Positions 6,001 to 18,000 of a stretch of 39,420 nt of DNA are shown here, one piece after another. The stretch is taken from assembly GCA_043825875.1 (NCBI GenBank), contig JBDRRF010000089.1:1-39420 (forward strand). The letters run 5' to 3'. Origin of the DNA: Pseudomonadota bacterium (GTDB taxonomy: Bacteria > Desulfobacterota > Desulfobacteria > Desulfobacterales > RPRI01). The number at the start of each line of letters is the position of its first letter. Position 1 is the first letter of the stretch. Made by a program: the position numbers.

Positions 6001-9000
6001 TTCGTGCTATGCCAATTCTCAAGCTGCGCTGCCGCATTATTTGATGTTTTCAAAATGAGAATTATAACCGAAAAAATAACTGTTTTTACCGCTGCCTGGA
6101 AGACTGCTTTGAGACCTTATTTTGTAGCAATCATTTTATTGACATACAAGCGCGGTTTCATTTTTTATCCCATCGCCCGGATAAACAAACATCCCTCCGT
6201 GTCTTTGGCTGTCGATTTTTTGGGCAATTTCTTTCATCGCTTTAATATCTTTTTCAACGACCGTGGTACGGCGTTTAATTTGTATTTCCCAAAACTTTTC
6301 TTCTGTGCAGTTCAATAAACCTTGGACTTTTCAAACAGCACCTTTCCGGCCAAAGGGAATGCCGAGTTTGTGCATTTTCGACCGGAGCGTCGAGGGATTT
6401 ATGTTCAGAAGCTTTGCTGCGCCATTTTTCCCGCCTACGCGGCCACCGGCCATATTCAGGGCCTTTAAAATTGCTTGTGACGTTGTTTGCTCAAGAGTGA
6501 AAGGATTTCTTCCCACGTTGTTCTCGGGTATTATGATGTTTGTGCGGGGGATAGTGTTGCTTAGATTGTCAAAGGTCAGCGGTCGTTCCCTGCTGATGAT
6601 AAGGGCGCGTTCGACTGAGTTCTGCAGTTCCCGGACATTGCCTGGCCAGTTGTAATGCATGAGTTTGTCGATAGCACCTGGTGCGAGTGTGGGGATCTCC
6701 ATAAAACCCATCTCCCGTGCCTTCTTCGTCATGAAATACTGGACCAGCGCTGGGATGTCGGCTCGCCGGTCACGAAGCGGCGGAATCACAATGGGAAAAA
6801 CCCTGAGGCGAAAATAAAGATCCTCGCGGAACTTGCCCTCCGCCATCATGGCCTCCAGATTGCGGTGTGTAGCTGCGATGACGCGAATATCAATCTTGAT
6901 GGTCTCTGTTCCGCCAACCCGTTCAATTTCCTTTTCCTGGATTACCCGTAGTAGCCTAACTTGCGCTCCCGGCGTTAATTCGCCGATCTCATCAAGAAAG
7001 ATCGTTCCGCCTTGGGCCCGTTCAAAGCGGCCGCGTTTTTGGAAAAAAGCTCCTGTAAATGCTCCCTTTTCATGGCCGAAGAGTTCGCTGTCCATAAGAG
7101 ATTCAGGTATAGCCCCGCAATTCACCTTAATAAAAGGAGCATTTTTGCGCGAAGATAGATTATGAATGGCCGTGGCTATAACCTCTTTTCCGGTTCCGGT
7201 TTCTCCCAGCAACAGAACAGGGCTGGCCAGAGGAGCTACCTGGCCGACCATTTCCATAATCTGCTTTAAACCGAAATGGGCGCCAATGATCTCTTCCCCA
7301 GTTTGCTGCCGCAATTCTTCCTGTAAATACCGGTTGTCATCCGCAAGTATCTCTTTCAACCGCAAGACCTCCCGATAACGCAGATAATTGGAAAGGGCGA
7401 TGGAAAAGGGCTCATTCAAAAACGAAAACAATCGTATATGTTTTTCTGAATACTTTCCCCCCTCATTATTACCGACAAAGATACCGGCGATAAAATCCCA
7501 TTCCAGTTTTGGCCCGATCGCCATAAAAGTTGCATCGGGGTAGCCAATAATTTCCGATATATATCCCATAATAGGATGCTCGCCTATTCGGTCGGCCACC
7601 AATACTTTCGGTCTCATCTGAGGATTTATTTTCATTTCCTCGATTAGTTGTTTCGCATCTGCCGGGGTGACTCTTTTGATGGAAGTAAGTTTTCCTCCGC
7701 TTAAATCAGCCATTGCAATGATTTCCGAAATCCCATGCACCGGATCATAAACAGCTATGAGCATGATATCCGCGGGAATATAATCACGAATATACATAAA
7801 ACAATCCCACAGCGCATTCTCGATCTCCAGACTGCCGCAGATCCGCAGTGTGGCTTTCCGGAAAAAATAATTTTCATCTATTCTCATGAGCATCTCCTAT
7901 TTAATATGATTTTATATATCATATTTCGCACTGTAACGCAATAAGTGCGAAATGTCATATATAATAGTGTGAAATATCATATTATTGCTTGCTATGTTTA
8001 TATAACTATCTGTATATAAAAGCATAAATGCTTTGGCACGATTTGAGCTAAGACTATAAAAAGCTATATATAAATTAAAATGAAATACCTGAAGATGAAA
8101 GCCTTTGATTTGTTGATAACATAATCGTCATTAAGGAGGGTAAGAAATGGAAAAGTATGATTTTGTAATCGTTGGTGGAGGGCACAATGGGTTATCAACT
8201 GCTGCCTACCTGGCTAAGTCAGGATATACGGTAGCAGTGGCCGAGGCGCGGGTTGAGGCCGGCGGATGTATGGACTTTTCCGAAGTCAGGGCAGGTTGCA
8301 TCATTCAGCCACATGCTCTTATAAGTTATGCGAACGCATCTCCAGGCATGGATCATCTGGATCTTTGGAGGTTTGGGCTTCGTTTTGCGCCAGTTAAAGG
8401 GCCGTTTATGCTGGTTAACTCGGATGACAGGCCTGTTCTGGGCCTTCATCCCCAAGACCCCGAAATGACCCGCAGGGCCTTTGAGGTTTTAAAAACGTGG
8501 TCGGTAAAGGATGCTCAGATATGGGAGAAGTTTGCATATGATTTAATCCCCCATATGAAGGATATATTGCGATCAATATACTGGGTTCCCCCATGGCCGC
8601 AGGATCTTGAGTATGAGCCTGAGGATCTCCCATGGTACCAAGTACTCAAAAAGGCCATGCCGCAACTGTTTAGTCCCGATTGGCTCGAGTTGAGCCTGGT
8701 TGAACTTATGGACGAACTTATGGAATGCGGACCCATGAAAGCCGCAATGATGTTTCAAGTCTACTATCAGGGAGTAGCACCGCATTGGCGGAAGCTGGCG
8801 ATCCCCGCCTTTGGAACCTATCTCTTGATGAATTATTCTGATGGAATGTTTGTAGGCGGTATGCATATGTATGCTCATGCAATCATCCGTTGCGCCATGC
8901 ACCACGGCGCCAAAATCCTCACCAACTCGCCTGTGGAAGAGATTATAGTGAAAGATAACAAAGCAGTGGGTATTCGTCTTTCAGATAGCGCTCAATACAA

Positions 9001-15000: not shown

Positions 15001-18000
15001 TGATCGTGTTGCAGTAGAGCGTTCCTGGGTGCGTAACTCTGTCGAAGACGGCGTTAAAACCTCCAGCCTTGATCTTCGAGTAAGGAACAAAGGATGGACT
15101 GCTCATTATGACGGCATCGTCGAATTGACAACAACTGTGGCTCTATCTAAAGCACCGCGTGGCTGTATCGCACCTTCTATTCCGGCGAGTTTCAACATTA
15201 CCGCCGACGAGAGTCGACCTTGGTGGGATATGTACGTGGGTATGCCTGCTTTCAAGGAAGGGGAGTCCGGTACGCATCTTGAGCAGCCGGGACAAGGCAA
15301 GGGCACATTACAGGTTGGAAAAGAAAGTTATCTTCTGGATGGCGTCACATACTATGACCACTCCTCAGGCATACGCGACTGGACCAAATCCCACTCGCAT
15401 AACTTTGCTCATATTGTGATGCCGGACTATACGATTCATGCGGTCACAGTCTATGCAACGCCGACCAAGGCCCATGCTCACTTTGGTGTGTTCTCACCCA
15501 TAGAAGGCAAACCGCTCAATATTATTCAGTCGACTATGCCTAAATTAACCGATGTTTTTAGTATGCATGATCAGTATGATTGGATACTTCAAACCGAGGG
15601 TGAAAAACCGCAAACCTTCCGTGTCGAGGTCATGCACACCTTCCCTATGACTATTACTAACGAAAACGACAATATCAATGGGTTTTATTGGGATGCTCCA
15701 GGCGACCCAATGTTCTTTACTGAATGCCAGGTCAAAGTCACTGCGCCTGACGGAGCTGTCGGTTATGGGCACATTGAGCGTACCAACCGAAGGAGCTGTG
15801 TGCTTCACCGTGATAGCTAAGTATTAGAGAAAATTAGTCACTACAATTACTGCTTTGCTTCCTGAAAGCAGGAACACGACAGATGTCTTAGATCTACAAG
15901 GTTTCATTCTATAATCAACACAAATGCGGATCATTTCACCAATAATTTGACAAAAGCTCTAATTTTCTTTATAAATTAACATCTTTTCATAAAGAATTTT
16001 TTCCCAACATCAAGTAAAGACAGATTACGTATATTAATTGTTATATTTCTCGGTACGAAAGAATATGAAAAAAATACATCTAAAAGCTGTAATTATTGGA
16101 ACTGTAGCGGATTTGTTGGCCACATTTCTATTTGGAATTATACTCTTTTTTTTATTTGGCCAAGGTGGTGATAAAGCCCTACCGTATGCTTTATTGACTG
16201 GATTGGCGTGTATAGTCCTTGGAGGATATGTGGCAGCATCAATAGCGCCAAATTATAAAATTTTCAATGCAACTATGATCGGCGTTGTTGGCATTTTAAT
16301 TGGAATACCATTTATAGGCTCATATCCTATTTGGTACTCAGCTTTATCAATAATATTAATGCCACCAGCTGCTTATTTGGGTGGAATAATCAAATTGAAA
16401 ATATAACCATTCACTGGTGCGGACGGCGAGTAGCATGCCGCCGCACAGCTCTATAGTTATACAAAAGGACAAATTCTTATGGGATGGTTAGAAGATATTG
16501 CCAAAAGACTTCCTGTTGAAAAAGCATATTTTGATGCCTTACAACCTGCTTTCAGAGAAATAGGAGATGTGGCTAGAAATACTATTAAAGCCTCTCGATT
16601 TATACTTGCTCCTATAGATTACTTGGCAGCACAACAAGATAGATACCAGTCATTTCTAAAAAAGGTTAACGAAAGGGTTCCTGAAGAAAGAATGATTCCG
16701 GCACATCCTCAAATTTCTGGTCCGGTTATCGAGGGACTAAGGTATATTGAAAAAGACAGTATTTTGGCAGAACTATTTATAAATCTTCTTGCCAGAGCAA
16801 TTGACAAAGAAAGAGTAAATGAGGCTCATCCTGCATTTGCAAATATCATTTCTCAATTATCGCCAGATGAAGCCTTCATAATTTTCAATCTAAACAAGAA
16901 GGATTTCAAACTCAAACAACATTCAAAGTTTTTTCCTGAGACGCATACTTTTGGACCACGGAAAACTATTGCTAATGAATTTCCTGTAGCAGAATTGGTG
17001 TATCCAGATAATTTTTTTTTGTACATGGATCATTTGCATAGTTTAAATATGGCTGGCGTATGGCAACATGGAAATCAAGAATCAATAATGGATGGTAATA
17101 TTCAGACCGGGGTTCACATAAACAACATCACTCAGCTGACTATATTTGGGAAATTATTTGCCAAAGCATGTATGCCAAACAAATTATAAAACAATGTATA
17201 ACCAGTTATTTAACGCGGACTCGCTGAATAATTCTATTTTAGCCCCACGAGAAACAAATGAAATATTTAGAAGAAGCAAAATCAATTTGGAAAAGCTTTG
17301 TACCTAAATCAGGACAATCTGATACTGTCCAAGGAGAATTACTCAGATCAGTTGAAAAACTACGTGATGAAGCTATTCGGAATGGAAATGGGAACTGGGA
17401 CAAAGGTTTCGTAATTTTATTAAGTTTCATCTCCAAAAAATTAGATGACCAAGATGTATTTAGCATGGATACCCGGATTGAAATTAACAAAATTCTTGAA
17501 AGATTATCAGATTTTGAGTCTCCCTATTTAGAGGACGACTATTACGATTTTCTTGGTGATTGTGTTGTTGAGTATTTTCAGCATTATGGTTCTCAACCCT
17601 ATAGTCACAATAAAGAGTTGTGGCGCTGAGGGGCTAACAATCGAATAAATGCTGATGACCAAAAAAGCCGAGTTTTGGTTTCGTAAATTTTATGGCTGTC
17701 GTTTCGGGTTTTTCGTCAGCTTATTCACGCGTTAACTGCGTCATAAGAAAAATGATTGATATTGAATCAGTAATACAGAAAAAGGCTAAAAAATTAAGGG
17801 CCATCGCTGATGGGCTTGTTGGTCTATATCCGATAGAAACAAAAACAGTTAAGTTTAATACGAAAATTCTCGATCATGAATCAAATCCTCCTGAATTAGT
17901 GAATGAATTTTATACTTGGGAAAAGGTGCAGAAATCAATTTTTGTTTATTATTTTTCAGTATTGCAAGATGCGGATTTGGAAATAATCCAGAAAAGAATT

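What a model noticed while it worked through the whole genome (the two positions that open the first line are those of the whole stretch)
6331..15820. 25-hydroxysteroid-kinase-like kinase clustered with two AttH-fold lyase candidates and a CtmAB-like desaturase in a Desu [...]
Next to a divergently transcribed sigma-54 activator (g03284), C89 carries a cassette of four parts. These are a two-subunit CtmAB/delta-24-desaturase-like flavoenzyme (g03285-86), a kinase whose closest solved relative is the 25-hydroxysteroid kinase (25-HSK) of anaerobic cholesterol degradation (g03287), two unannotated AttH-fold proteins (g03288, g03290) and a 93-aa protein (g03289). The best structural match of g03290 is the 25-phosphosteroid lyase (25-PSL). 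I propose that this is an ATP-dependent dehydration module for isoprenoid side chains in a strict anaerobe of the sulfate-reducer order: it phosphorylates a tertiary alcohol and eliminates phosphate to give an alkene. So far the kina [...]
Evidence so far: g03287 against PDB sequences: best hit 9fsg, E 8.2e-36. Its 63%-identical paralog g01227, modelled at pLDDT 91.5, gives 25-HSK 9ft5/9fsg as top Foldseek hits, TM 0.88/0.84, 29-30% id. g03290 model pLDDT 86.6: the top five Foldseek hits are all 25-PSL entries (9g4c, 9g2i, 9fzn; E 2e-10 to 2e-9, TM 0.62-0.64/0.57-0.59), with no PDB hit by sequence or profile. g03288 model pLDDT 82.6: AttH 2ich TM 0.68, kievitone hydratase, 25-PSL TM 0.60, plus a weak CrtC Pfam hit. 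The best Swiss-Prot hits of g03285/86 are limonene dehydrogenase CtmA/CtmB. g03290 homologs are 57-62% identical in Steroidobacteraceae, Rhodocyclaceae and a betaproteobacterial MAG, and 27-41% in Mycobacterium, Pseudonocardia and S [...]
(Added by a program. Inside this text positions count along the whole contig: contig position 1 is position 1 of the stretch shown here. "Call 12" and the like, gene names such as g00115 and contig names such as C1 are that model's own, and its searches are not shown. The text may have been shortened before it was handed on; [...] marks where a part breaks off. The agent that wrote the report below was given it as the finding of a first reader that could run no searches.)

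Follow-up and report, generated by a model that had tools for sequence, protein, structure and literature searches.

The report
Kinase plus phosphate-lyase-like dehydration genes
A sulfate-reducing bacterium has added a small-molecule kinase and a distant relative of a phosphate-removing steroid lyase to an older flavoenzyme gene cassette, probably to strip a stubborn hydroxyl group from an oily isoprenoid-type compound without oxygen.

Summary
The kinase belongs to the APH clade that holds 25-hydroxysteroid kinase and Rv3168. Its nearest genome relatives, L021 and L022, sit beside true sequence homologs of 25-phosphosteroid lyase (25-PSL). The downstream 329-aa protein (AttH2) belongs to the DUF7065/DUF7064 (Rv3169) family. 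A profile comparison links that family to the 25-PSL family (hhalign 90%, E 1.6e-6), including a shared D-H-S-x-G-x-R centre. In 9 of 11 other genomes a family member lies next to a phosphotransferase. The other AttH-fold protein (AttH1) is hydratase-like, shows no link to the lyase family, and is not found beside kinases elsewhere.

The cassette is a mosaic. A related MAG carries activator, A, B, AttH1 and p93 without the kinase. The kinase (57% GC in a 39% GC genome) was inserted into the 5' end of AttH1, and AttH2 is a 1.2-kb mobile cassette. One congener has the kinase in the same place, plus a deleted AttH2 remnant.

I read kinase plus AttH2 as an ATP-dependent dehydration pair (confidence 0.55). 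The substrate is unknown, nothing points specifically to sterols, and no protein of the DUF7065/DUF7064 family has a characterisation in the papers I searched. This is a new variant of a known kind.

The parts
6331..7893 (-). Sigma-54 enhancer-binding activator, 520 aa, transcribed divergently from the cassette. It is one of at least 6 paralogs of about 80% identity in this genome.
   Evidence: Pfam Sigma54_activat 2.8e-70, AAA_lid_14 and HTH_8. Paralogs found by tblastn. Syntenic in L017 and in G008.
8034..8049 (+). Sigma-54-type -24/-12 promoter-like site, TGGCACGATTTGAGCT, 113 nt upstream of the start of A.
   Evidence: Pattern scan. It is one of three such + strand sites in the window (2943, 8034, 25015). 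The one at 25015 also lies downstream of a divergent activator. This is a consensus match only.
8147..9859 (+). Subunit A of a two-subunit CrtI/CtmAB-type flavoenzyme, 570 aa. His56-Ala57 sits at the position of the covalent-FMN motif.
   Evidence: Pfam FAD/NAD Rossmann and amine-oxidase domains. NCBIfam CrtO/CrtI-family models, below cut-off. A and B are 27.6% identical. Motif position; motif taken from PMC11061730.
9891..11630 (+). Subunit B of the flavoenzyme, 579 aa. His86-Ala87 sits at the motif position.
   Evidence: A 39% paralog lies in a second activator-A/B-p93-like cassette on C70.
11658..11676 (+). Terminator-like hairpin after B, shared with L017.
11726..11847 (.). 122-bp repeated element, absent from L017 and G008.
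   Evidence: Four further copies at 95-99% identity on C14, C47, C24 and C9. Junction alignment.
11848..11945 (+). Remnant of the original ribosome-binding site and about the first 25 codons of AttH1, left behind when the kinase segment was inserted.
   Evidence: The remnant aligns to L017's region immediately upstream of, and running into, AttH1. tblastn gives 80% identity over 25 aa to AttH1.
12089..13153 (+). APH-family small-molecule kinase of the 25-HSK/Rv3168 clade, 354 aa; the ATG at 12092 may be the true start. It has 57% GC and 71% GC3 in a 39% GC genome, and is an insertion relative to L017.
   Evidence: Motifs WGDARLGN 226-233 and DWE 246-248. Clade placement.
13204..14196 (+). AttH1, a 330-aa AttH/CrtC-type two-barrel protein that is hydratase-like. 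It is part of the ancestral cassette.
   Evidence: CrtC 5.9e-4; 2ich by sequence; fold; no profile link to the 25-PSL family; GDHEW at 170-174.
14222..14503 (+). p93, a small protein of unknown function that travels with the A/B pair.
   Evidence: No family found. A 61% paralog lies directly after the A/B-like pair on C70. Conserved in L016, L017 and G008.
14692..14720 (+). Sigma-70-like promoter site, TTGACA-17-TAAAAT, matching 11 of 12 positions, inside the mobile AttH2 cassette.
   Evidence: It lies within the 14683-15867 segment shared with G008 C147. This is a consensus match only.
14831..15820 (+). AttH2, 329 aa, a member of the DUF7065/DUF7064 (Rv3169) family and the phosphate-lyase candidate. 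It has the centre D176-H-S-S-G-I-R182 and a C-terminal G311-Y-G-H-I-E316.
   Evidence: It is flanked by repeats found elsewhere in the genome.

Best explanation
The kinase (12089-13153) and AttH2 (14831-15820) form a two-enzyme, ATP-dependent dehydration pair of the 25-HSK/25-PSL type. The kinase turns an unreactive hydroxyl group of a hydrophobic, probably isoprenoid-type, substrate into a phosphate ester. AttH2 then expels phosphate to leave a C=C bond. Both genes were added recently to an older sigma-54-controlled cassette made of the activator, a CtmAB-type two-subunit flavoenzyme A/B, the hydratase-like AttH1 and p93. In that setting A/B would desaturate or hydroxylate an allylic position, and AttH1 would add water to, or remove it from, a double bond. 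Shown here: the family assignments, the remote homology of AttH2's family to 25-PSL, the recurrent pairing of that family with phosphotransferases, and the insertion history. Inferred: the chemistry, the order of steps and the substrate.
For: 1. Kinase. It matches Pfam APH. Its best PDB sequence hits are 25-HSK 9fsg at 7.5e-36, Rv3168 3ats at 2.2e-34, and the ACAD11 kinase domain at 1e-22. ACAD10/11 kinase domains phosphorylate 4-hydroxyacyl-CoA before elimination (abstracts of PMC12440821 and PMC11342911). The WGDARLGN and DWE motifs align with 9fsg.

2. Kinase tree. The window clade is sister to the L021 and L022 kinases with SH-like support 0.962. Next to the L021 kinase lies a 364-aa protein that hits 25-PSL 9fzn at 8.9e-38 over its full length. 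Among kinases from the kinase-seeded loci, 6 of 15 inside the window's clade have a 25-PSL-family neighbour, against 0 of 66 outside it.

3. AttH2 family against the 25-PSL family. hhalign gives probability 90.1%, E 1.6e-6, over 165 columns, covering the D-H-S-x-G-x-R centre and the C-terminal GYG..E. Internal controls: AttH1 family against 25-PSL family 2.8%; AttH2 family against AttH1 family 12.7%.

4. Fold. The AttH2 model has pLDDT 91.1, and its top five Foldseek hits are 25-PSL entries.

5. Context. AttH2 relatives lie beside an APH kinase in 6 of 11 genome loci and beside a PEP-utilising/PPDK-type phosphotransferase in 3 of 11. A family member, L001:2354-3313, matches NCBIfam 'Rv3169 family', and Rv3168-Rv3169 is one operon (passages of PMC5340868).

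6. Co-occurrence. The 95% kinase ortholog and the 95% AttH2 ortholog are both found in the same single congener, G008, out of 16 congeners. G008's syntenic cassette also carries a deleted AttH2 remnant downstream.
Against: The kinase and AttH2 are not adjacent: AttH1, p93 and a 327-bp spacer lie between them. AttH2 has its own sigma-70-like promoter site.

AttH2 is a 1.19-kb mobile cassette. In G008 the intact copy lies beside an antitoxin, a cupin and an IS200-type transposase, with no kinase nearby. The copy linked to G008's cassette is deleted.

The kinase's closest relatives pair with the true 25-PSL family, not with DUF7065/DUF7064. This genome has no 25-PSL-family gene at E <= 0.01, so the partnership with AttH2 is partly inferred by elimination.

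The 63% kinase paralog on C41 sits beside two molybdopterin enzymes, an aldehyde:ferredoxin oxidoreductase (AFOR) and a SnoaL-like protein, with no AttH2 relative nearby.

The second DUF7065/64-like gene of this genome lies next to a sulfotransferase, not a kinase.

My searches found no paper characterising any DUF7065/DUF7064 protein.
Confidence: 0.55

Rival explanations
1. The co-location is fortuitous. AttH2 is a mobile single-gene cassette that happened to land near the operon. It works alone, for example as a CrtC/kievitone-type hydratase or another AttH-fold enzyme, and the kinase serves a different partner or substrate.
Against: Nine of 11 family loci lie beside a phosphotransferase. 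The family has a profile link to the 25-PSL family but not to the hydratase-like AttH1 family. AttH2 is linked to the same cassette in two genomes, intact here and as a remnant in G008. The kinase ortholog and AttH2 are found in the same 2 of 17 genomes of the genus.
Confidence: 0.2
2. One reading: the cassette is a sterol side-chain module. A C25-type tertiary alcohol of a sterol is phosphorylated and eliminated as in Sterolibacterium, with A/B acting as a delta-24-desaturase-like enzyme.
For: 25-HSK is the top PDB sequence hit of the kinase, and 25-PSL is the top Foldseek hit of AttH2. Some relatives of the kinase carry a fused SCP2 sterol-carrier domain. A/B resemble the CtmAB/delta-24-SD type in having two subunits of about 27% identity and a His-Ala at the FMN site (PMC11061730 sections read).
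Against: Rv3168 scores nearly as well as 25-HSK, and this is also true for a kinase that sits beside a true 25-PSL homolog, so the PDB ranking says nothing about substrate. No type II DMSO-reductase alpha subunit and no KstD reaches its cut-off in this 99.8%-complete genome. AttH2 is only about 12-14% identical to 25-PSL in the structural alignments. The genome carries at least 8 CtmAB-like loci and at least 13 DUF1329 genes, which suggests many hydrophobic substrates.
Confidence: 0.1
3. AttH1, not AttH2, is the kinase's lyase partner, since the kinase was inserted directly upstream of it and the pair is conserved in G008.
For: The kinase and AttH1 are separated by 50 bp and lie in the same order in G008. 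The insertion regenerated an intact AttH1 start. AttH1 also has the AttH fold, with 25-PSL at E 4e-9.
Against: AttH1 predates the kinase: L017 has AttH1 without it. Its family shows no profile link to the 25-PSL family (2.8%) and lacks the S-x-G-x-R part of the centre motif. Its weak sequence hits are to AttH 2ich and kievitone hydratase. None of the three other loci of its family that I scanned, L018 to L020, has a kinase.
Confidence: 0.1

Closest known systems
25-hydroxysteroid kinase (25-HSK, SDENChol_21286; PDB 9fsg/9ft5/9fu5) with 25-phosphosteroid lyase (25-PSL; PDB 9fzn/9g2i/9g4c) of Sterolibacterium denitrificans
   Same: Both have an APH-fold kinase of the same clade plus an AttH-fold two-barrel protein with the D-(H/R)-S-x-G-x-R centre. 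The proposed logic is the same: phosphorylate an alcohol, then eliminate phosphate to give an alkene (PMC8449060 passages).
   Different: AttH2 is not a sequence-level member of the 25-PSL family; only a profile-to-profile comparison links them. The kinase does not group specifically with 25-HSK rather than Rv3168. In S. denitrificans no lyase candidate lies near the kinase gene (PMC8449060). Here there is no Mo hydroxylase, the host is a sulfate reducer, and the substrate is unknown.
Rv3168-Rv3169 operon of Mycobacterium tuberculosis (APH kinase, PDB 3ats; NCBIfam NF053593 'Rv3169 family', Pfam DUF7065+DUF7064)
   Same: The family pairing is the same. The kinase scores 2.2e-34 against 3ats. 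A relative of AttH2, L001:2354-3313, matches the Rv3169 family model. The two M. tuberculosis genes form one TetR-repressed operon (PMC5340868 passages).
   Different: The function of that pair is also unknown. AttH2 itself does not reach the Pfam or NCBIfam thresholds. Regulation here is by sigma-54, and the two genes are not adjacent.
ACAD10/ACAD11 (kinase domain fused to an acyl-CoA dehydrogenase domain)
   Same: The kinase domain comes from the same APH branch (8v3v at 1e-22), and an alcohol is phosphorylated so that it can be eliminated (abstracts of PMC12440821 and PMC11342911).
   Different: In ACAD10/11 an ACAD domain performs the elimination on a CoA thioester. No ACAD gene or CoA-handling gene lies in this cassette.
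Limonene dehydrogenase CtmAB and delta-24 steroid desaturase (for A/B)
   Same: Both have two paralogous CrtI-type flavoprotein subunits of about 26-28% identity, with a His-Ala at the N-terminal site where FMN is covalently bound (PMC11061730).
   Different: Only 3 of the 7 specified motif positions match in each subunit. I could not compare the sequences directly with these tools. The accompanying p93 has no described counterpart.
CrtC / AttH / kievitone hydratase (for AttH1)
   Same: The fold matches (2ich 1e-13, kievitone hydratase 2e-12). There are weak sequence hits to CrtC, 2ich and 7a0q around a D-H/R-x-W motif.
   Different: The CrtC hit is just under the Pfam cut-off (21.0 against 22.5 bits). 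The AttH1 family is small, with 15 database hits, mostly from Desulfonema-like genomes.

Membership tests
25-HSK (25-hydroxysteroid kinase) | APH/eukaryotic-like kinase fold with a catalytic Asp/Asn loop and a DxE metal site | tested here: met
   Pfam APH 2.2e-25. WGDARLGN 226-233 and DWE 246-248 align with the same residues of 9fsg.
25-HSK (25-hydroxysteroid kinase) | Specific orthology to SDENChol_21286; the paper's closest relatives are 46-55% identical | tested here: not met
   9fsg at 7.5e-36 barely exceeds Rv3168 at 2.2e-34. A kinase that sits beside a true 25-PSL homolog shows the same near-tie. The 25-HSK sequence itself could not be fetched; a primer scan found nothing.
25-HSK (25-hydroxysteroid kinase) | Phosphorylates 25-hydroxy steroids | not testable with these tools
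   This needs an enzyme assay.
25-PSL family (25-phosphosteroid lyase) | Detectable sequence similarity to 9fzn/9g4c | tested here: not met
   AttH2 and its family profile have no PDB sequence hit. By contrast L021:3528-4622 hits 9fzn at 8.9e-38.
25-PSL family (25-phosphosteroid lyase) | Remote, profile-level homology that includes the D-(H/R)-S-x-G-x-R centre | tested here: met
   hhalign of A1 against A6 gives 90.1%, E 1.6e-6, over 165 columns. AttH2 D176-R182 aligns with RDHSWGVR of L021, which in turn aligns with RDRSWGVR of 9fzn.
25-PSL family (25-phosphosteroid lyase) | AttH-type two-barrel fold | tested here: met
25-PSL family (25-phosphosteroid lyase) | Phosphate- and substrate-binding residues of the solved complex | not testable with these tools
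   No coordinates or residue-level superposition are available here, and the paper describing the structure is not in the library.
DUF7065+DUF7064 / Rv3169 family | Match to PF23213 plus PF23212 or to NF053593 | tested here: inconclusive
   AttH2 itself matches no Pfam or NCBIfam model. Relatives at 38-64% identity do carry PF23212 and/or PF23213. The AttH2-family HMM finds L001:2354-3313 at 1e-8, and that protein matches DUF7065, DUF7064 and Rv3169_fam. Membership therefore rests on transitivity.
DUF7065+DUF7064 / Rv3169 family | A neighbouring phosphoryl-transfer enzyme | tested here: met
   Nine of 11 loci elsewhere have one. Here the kinase lies 1.7 kb upstream on the same strand.
CrtC/AttH hydratases (AttH1) | CrtC N-terminal lipocalin domain and AttH fold | tested here: inconclusive
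   PF07143 scores 21.0 bits against a cut-off of 22.5. The fold match to 2ich and kievitone hydratase is clear. Profile hits to 2ich (0.015) and 7a0q (0.061) are weak.
CtmAB / delta-24-SD flavoenzymes (A/B) | Two paralogous CrtI-type subunits, each with the covalent-FMN motif G-F-L/R-X-N/S-T/L-H-A | tested here: inconclusive
   There are two subunits of 27.6% identity. A His-Ala is present in both, but only 3 of the 7 specified motif positions match. No direct comparison with CtmAB was possible.
Sigma-54 enhancer-binding proteins | AAA+ sigma-54 interaction domain plus a C-terminal HTH, with a -24/-12 promoter at the target | tested here: met
   Pfam. TGGCAC-N5-xxGC site at 8034; the site is a consensus match only.

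The most novel reading that the evidence does not exclude
The cassette may encode a molybdenum-free, oxygen-free route for activating the saturated or trisubstituted end of an isoprenoid chain in a sulfate reducer. AttH1 would hydrate a double bond to a tertiary alcohol. The kinase and AttH2 would then spend one ATP to re-eliminate it in the other direction, which amounts to an ATP-driven shift of the double bond. The CtmAB-type flavoenzyme A/B would then hydroxylate or desaturate the newly allylic carbon with water. This would replace the two Mo hydroxylases of the Sterolibacterium pathway. 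The locus would also show the pathway being assembled, through recent insertion of the kinase and the lyase into an older hydratase/flavoenzyme operon.
Probability: 0.15. Interest if true: 0.85.

Novelty: new variant of a known kind. Interest (0 to 1): 0.6.

Why it matters
ATP-dependent dehydration through a phosphoester is so far documented biochemically for one denitrifier (25-HSK/25-PSL) and, in fused form, for ACAD10/11.

This locus and the comparative data gathered here suggest the same logic is widespread. Two related lyase families, 25-PSL proper and DUF7065/DUF7064 (Rv3169), recur beside kinases of one APH clade or beside PEP-dependent phosphotransferases. The hosts range from Actinomycetota to Dehalococcoidia, Spirochaetota and sulfate reducers.

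If confirmed, this would assign a function to a large DUF family that includes the M. tuberculosis Rv3168-Rv3169 operon. It would also point to how strict anaerobes without Mo hydroxylases attack inert isoprenoid lipids in sediments.

The insertion history also shows, step by step, how such a pair can be recruited into an existing operon: a kinase-free relative, the kinase inserted with a duplicated gene start, and a mobile lyase cassette.

Tried and rejected
A single-protein scan of genome contigs with AttH2 found nothing. The alignment-based scan worked.

AttH2, its family profile and a DUF7065/64 relative gave no usable PDB sequence hit.

I tried to reach the S. denitrificans 25-HSK locus with the gene-specific part of a primer printed in PMC8449060. 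There were 0 matches, so true 25-HSK and Rv3168 could not be placed in the kinase tree.

Three searches for a paper on 25-PSL found only earlier papers that call the lyase putative.

The 364-aa protein in the kinase paralog's operon (L012:17343-18437) was tested as a hidden 25-PSL. It has no PDB hit and belongs to a different family with at least 14 members.

The ESM Atlas gave nothing for p93.

No earlier notes of this scan exist for this genome's kinase or lyase genes, or for the AttH2 sequence.

I did not run complex prediction, because consecutive pathway enzymes need not bind each other. I did not use sequencing-run tools or the search of protein representatives.

My pattern search for the -24/-12 site in L017, L113 and L014 returned nothing with the coordinates I gave, so conservation of the promoter remains unchecked.

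Full report
WHAT IS THERE

The window is the whole of contig C89 of a 4.77-Mb assembly. The genome has 39.1% GC, is 99.8% complete, and carries dsrA above its curated cut-off, so the organism is a sulfate or sulfite reducer. Close relatives of the locus come from Desulfonema limicola and Desulfobacteraceae MAGs.

- a sigma-54 activator on the minus strand;
- two FAD Rossmann/amine-oxidase proteins, A and B, 27.6% identical to each other;
- an APH-family kinase;
- a 330-aa protein (AttH1) with a sub-threshold CrtC hit;
- a 93-aa protein (p93) with no family;
- a 329-aa protein (AttH2) with no Pfam, NCBIfam or PDB sequence hit.

A -24/-12 type site lies 113 nt upstream of A.

- Kinase against PDB sequences: 9fsg 7.5e-36 and Rv3168 (3ats) 2.2e-34.
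- AttH2 model: pLDDT 91.1. Its top five Foldseek hits are 25-PSL entries at 1.2e-10 to 1.2e-9.
- AttH1 model: pLDDT 86.0. Its best hits are AttH 2ich, CghA and kievitone hydratase, with 25-PSL at rank 23.

WHAT TELLS LYASE FROM HYDRATASE

AttH2 has 53 database relatives. Several carry Pfam DUF7065 and/or DUF7064.

I fetched eleven genome loci with the family alignment.
- In six of them (L001, L002, L003, L006, L008, L009) the relative lies beside an APH kinase.
- In three (L004, L005, L010) it lies beside a PEP-utilising/PPDK-type phosphotransferase.
- L007 and L011 have neither.

One family member, L001:2354-3313, matches NCBIfam 'Rv3169 family'. Rv3168, the kinase's second-best PDB hit, forms an operon with Rv3169 in M. 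tuberculosis (passages of PMC5340868). It is in fact the same kinase-plus-barrel pairing seen a second time.

The decisive link came from the kinase side. I fetched eighty loci with the kinase subfamily alignment. None has a DUF7065/64 or AttH1-type neighbour. The two kinases closest to the window's, in L021 (a Dehalococcoidia MAG) and L022 (a Spirochaetota MAG), both 41% identical, are preceded by proteins of about 364 aa with no Pfam family. The L021 protein hits the solved 25-PSL at 8.9e-38 over its whole length.

An HMM built from five such proteins finds a 25-PSL-family neighbour in 6 of the 80 loci. A profile-to-profile comparison gives these results:

| Comparison | hhalign probability |
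|---|---|
| AttH2 family vs 25-PSL family | 90.1% (E 1.6e-6, 165 columns) |
| AttH1 family vs 25-PSL family | 2.8% |
| AttH2 family vs AttH1 family | 12.7% |

The AttH2-to-25-PSL alignment covers the strand-turn centre, where AttH2 D176-H-S-S-G-I-R182 aligns with R-D-H-S-W-G-V-R of L021. The L021 stretch aligns in turn with R-D-R-S-W-G-V-R of 25-PSL. The alignment also covers the C-terminal G-Y-G-x-x-E.

AttH1 has D-H-E-W at this place, like D-R-E-W of AttH 2ich and D-R-Q-W of kievitone hydratase. None of the three AttH1-family loci that I scanned outside this cassette (L018 to L020) has a kinase.

My conclusion is that AttH2 is the lyase candidate and AttH1 is a hydratase-type protein. There are not two lyase candidates.

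THE KINASE

In a FastTree of 97 sequences, the window kinase groups with its 63% paralog and metagenomic relatives. That group is sister to the L021 and L022 kinases, with SH-like support 0.962. The surrounding clade of 28 sequences holds all six kinases with 25-PSL-family neighbours and three with DUF7065/64 neighbours.

Among kinases from the kinase-seeded loci, 6 of 15 inside the clade have a 25-PSL-family neighbour, against 0 of 66 outside it (Fisher p = 1.5e-5). Relatives are not independent, so that p-value overstates the case.

As a control, the L021 kinase, which sits beside a true 25-PSL homolog, also scores 3ats (2.6e-40) about equal to 9fsg (3.7e-39). The PDB ranking therefore carries no information about substrate.

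The ACAD11 kinase domain is the next PDB hit. ACAD10/11 phosphorylate 4-hydroxyacyl-CoA so that it can be eliminated (abstracts). The whole branch seems devoted to making alcohols into leaving groups.

HISTORY OF THE LOCUS

A related MAG (L017) carries activator, A, B, AttH1 and p93 at 88-93% nucleotide identity but has no kinase. Window 6309-11722 matches L017 202-5625, and window 13201-14516 matches L017 5650-6974.

The segment in between holds three things:
- a 122-bp repeat with four more copies in the genome;
- the original ribosome-binding site and about the first 25 codons of AttH1, now a remnant;
- the kinase, at 57% GC and 71% GC3.

So the kinase was inserted into the start of AttH1, and an intact AttH1 start was regenerated downstream.

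Homology to L016 and L017 ends about 12 nt after the p93 stop. L017 shows no AttH2 in its remaining 0.9 kb, nor does L016 in its remaining 3.7 kb.

AttH2 is flanked by sequences repeated elsewhere in the genome and carries a strong sigma-70-like site, matching 11 of 12 positions.

Among 16 congeners and 14 genomes of the same order, AttH2 was found only in G008, at 95% identity. The 95% kinase ortholog was also found only in G008.

G008 contig C34 has the order activator, A, B, kinase, AttH1, p93, DUF1302, DUF1329. After these comes an AttH2 copy with an internal deletion that joins its first codons to its last 18 or so. G008's intact AttH2 lies on another contig as a 1.19-kb unit, corresponding to window 14683-15867. 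It sits beside a CopG antitoxin, a cupin and an IS200-type transposase, with no kinase nearby.

These facts cut both ways. AttH2 has been linked to this cassette in two genomes, and it co-occurs with the kinase at genome level. But the physical linkage is loose and has not been maintained.

WIDER GENOME

The cassette is one of many. tblastn finds at least 13 DUF1329 genes, at least 8 CtmAB-like loci, several AveC-like membrane proteins and at least 6 activator paralogs of about 80% identity.

A second cassette on C70 has activator, an A/B-like pair, a p93 paralog and DUF1329. p93 therefore belongs with the flavoenzyme.

No 25-PSL-family gene was found in the genome. No type II DMSO-reductase alpha subunit reaches its cut-off, and neither does a KstD.

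The genome's best partial matches to the type II Mo-enzyme model are two 771-789-aa proteins next to the kinase paralog on C41. An aldehyde:ferredoxin oxidoreductase (AFOR), a short-chain dehydrogenase, a ferredoxin and a SnoaL-like protein lie nearby.

MECHANISM

Most likely (confidence 0.55), the kinase phosphorylates a hydroxyl group of a hydrophobic, probably isoprenoid-type, compound, and AttH2 eliminates phosphate to give an alkene.

The older partners suggest the surrounding chemistry. A CtmAB/delta-24-desaturase-type flavoenzyme acts at allylic positions; the reactions are described in PMC11061730, section 7 and passages. A CrtC-type hydratase interconverts alkenes and, typically, tertiary alcohols; that last point is my own knowledge of CrtC and kievitone hydratase, not a result of any call.

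A bolder reading, with probability 0.15, is that hydratase, kinase, lyase and flavoenzyme together replace the two Mo hydroxylases of the Sterolibacterium route.

Nothing here identifies the substrate. The SCP2 fusions in relatives of the kinase, and the DUF1329/DUF1302, AveC-like and RND genes around the cassette, only say that it is lipophilic.

RELATION TO WHAT IS KNOWN

This is a new variant of the 25-HSK/25-PSL kind. It is not a member of the 25-PSL family in the strict sense, and the kinase is not an ortholog of 25-HSK.

Earlier notes of this scan had already read DUF7065/DUF7064 proteins in other genomes as kinase-linked relatives of 25-PSL. I treated them as leads. One of them prompted the NCBIfam scan, and another named the centre motif; I tested both here. 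In the paper library I found no characterisation of any DUF7065/64 protein and no paper on 25-PSL itself.

PAPERS AND WHAT I SAW OF THEM

- PMC8449060: passages.
- PMC11061730: outline, section 7 and passages.
- PMC7411048: passages.
- PMC5340868: passages.
- PMC12440821 and PMC11342911: start of the abstracts only.

Noticed in passing
G000 C41:62000-82000 (L012), kinase paralog at L012:9552-10613 (-): The 63% kinase paralog lies in a long same-strand gene row. The row holds two 771-780-aa molybdopterin enzymes, which are the genome's best partial matches to the type II DMSO-reductase model; their PDB best hits are PcrA, thiosulfate reductase, acetylene hydratase and ethylbenzene dehydrogenase. 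It also holds a CCG protein, an aldehyde:ferredoxin oxidoreductase, an SDR, a ferredoxin, a SnoaL-like protein, an MFS transporter and DUF1302. This may be a second hydroxylase-plus-kinase system without an AttH2-type partner.
   Followed up: partly
L021:3528-5615; L022:4311-9338; L026, L027, L028, L069: True sequence homologs of 25-phosphosteroid lyase (9fzn at 8.9e-38 for L021) lie directly beside APH kinases in MAGs labelled Dehalococcoidia, Spirochaetota, Deltaproteobacteria or Myxococcota, and Thermodesulfobacteriota. L021 also has AFOR and SnoaL genes, and the L022 kinase is fused to SCP2. In S. denitrificans the kinase gene has no lyase candidate nearby.
   Followed up: partly
G000 C41:11490-12599 (L101:7488-8549, -): A second, distant DUF7065/64-like gene of this genome (E 5.7e-14 against the AttH2-family HMM) lies next to a Sulfotransfer_3 gene, an SDR and an old-yellow-enzyme-type reductase. 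The L002 locus also has two sulfotransferases near its AttH2 relative. Sulfate might serve as an alternative leaving group.
   Followed up: partly
L004, L005, L010 (Conexibacteraceae, Mycobacterium sp., M. europaeum): In these genomes DUF7065/64 genes are paired with PEP-utilising/PPDK-type phosphotransferases instead of APH kinases. L010 has two such pairs. Mce4/MlaD uptake genes, a P450, luciferase-like and CtmAB-like genes lie nearby.
   Followed up: no
G000, at least 14 loci, e.g. C41:79345-80436, C41:98603-99676, C16:3087-4160, C62, C115: A family of about 360-aa proteins with no firm family hit is expanded to at least 14 copies. One copy (C41:18464-19504) has a weak hit to the AttH-type Lipocalin_9 domain (1.9e-4). 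Copies often lie near DUF1329, AveC-like, CCG or AFOR genes. The family is unrelated by blastp to the 25-PSL family.
   Followed up: partly
window 137-6058 and 38095-39411: Upstream of the cassette lie a DUF1329/LolA-like protein, an AveC-like membrane protein with 55% GC and 74% GC3, a 109-aa ORF preceded by a -24/-12 site at 2943, two related unnamed multi-pass membrane proteins that I judged hydrophobic by eye (one has a weak ECF_trnsprt hit), and a second AveC-like protein. A 67% copy of the high-GC AveC-like gene closes the contig.
   Followed up: partly
window 23272-30916: A second activator, 80% identical to the first, is transcribed divergently from a -24/-12 site at 25015. Downstream come a small ORF, 63% identical to the 109-aa ORF at 2953-3282, and an outer-membrane factor/HlyD/AcrB-type RND efflux operon.
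   Followed up: no
window 16038-20517: A low-GC island (30-36% GC for most genes) directly after AttH2 holds Abi_alpha, a GIY-YIG protein, small membrane proteins and a DUF4143 AAA ATPase. It is probably a defence or mobile island.
   Followed up: no
window 11726-11847; also 14541-14633, 15857-15926, 15944-16037: Short repeated elements are present. The 122-bp element has four more copies at 95-99% identity on C14, C47, C24 and C9. The segments that flank AttH2 recur on C57, C28, C4, C31 and C76.
   Followed up: partly
window 31411-32241: A KilA-N domain protein lies in a further low-GC stretch, which suggests phage or mobile DNA.
   Followed up: no
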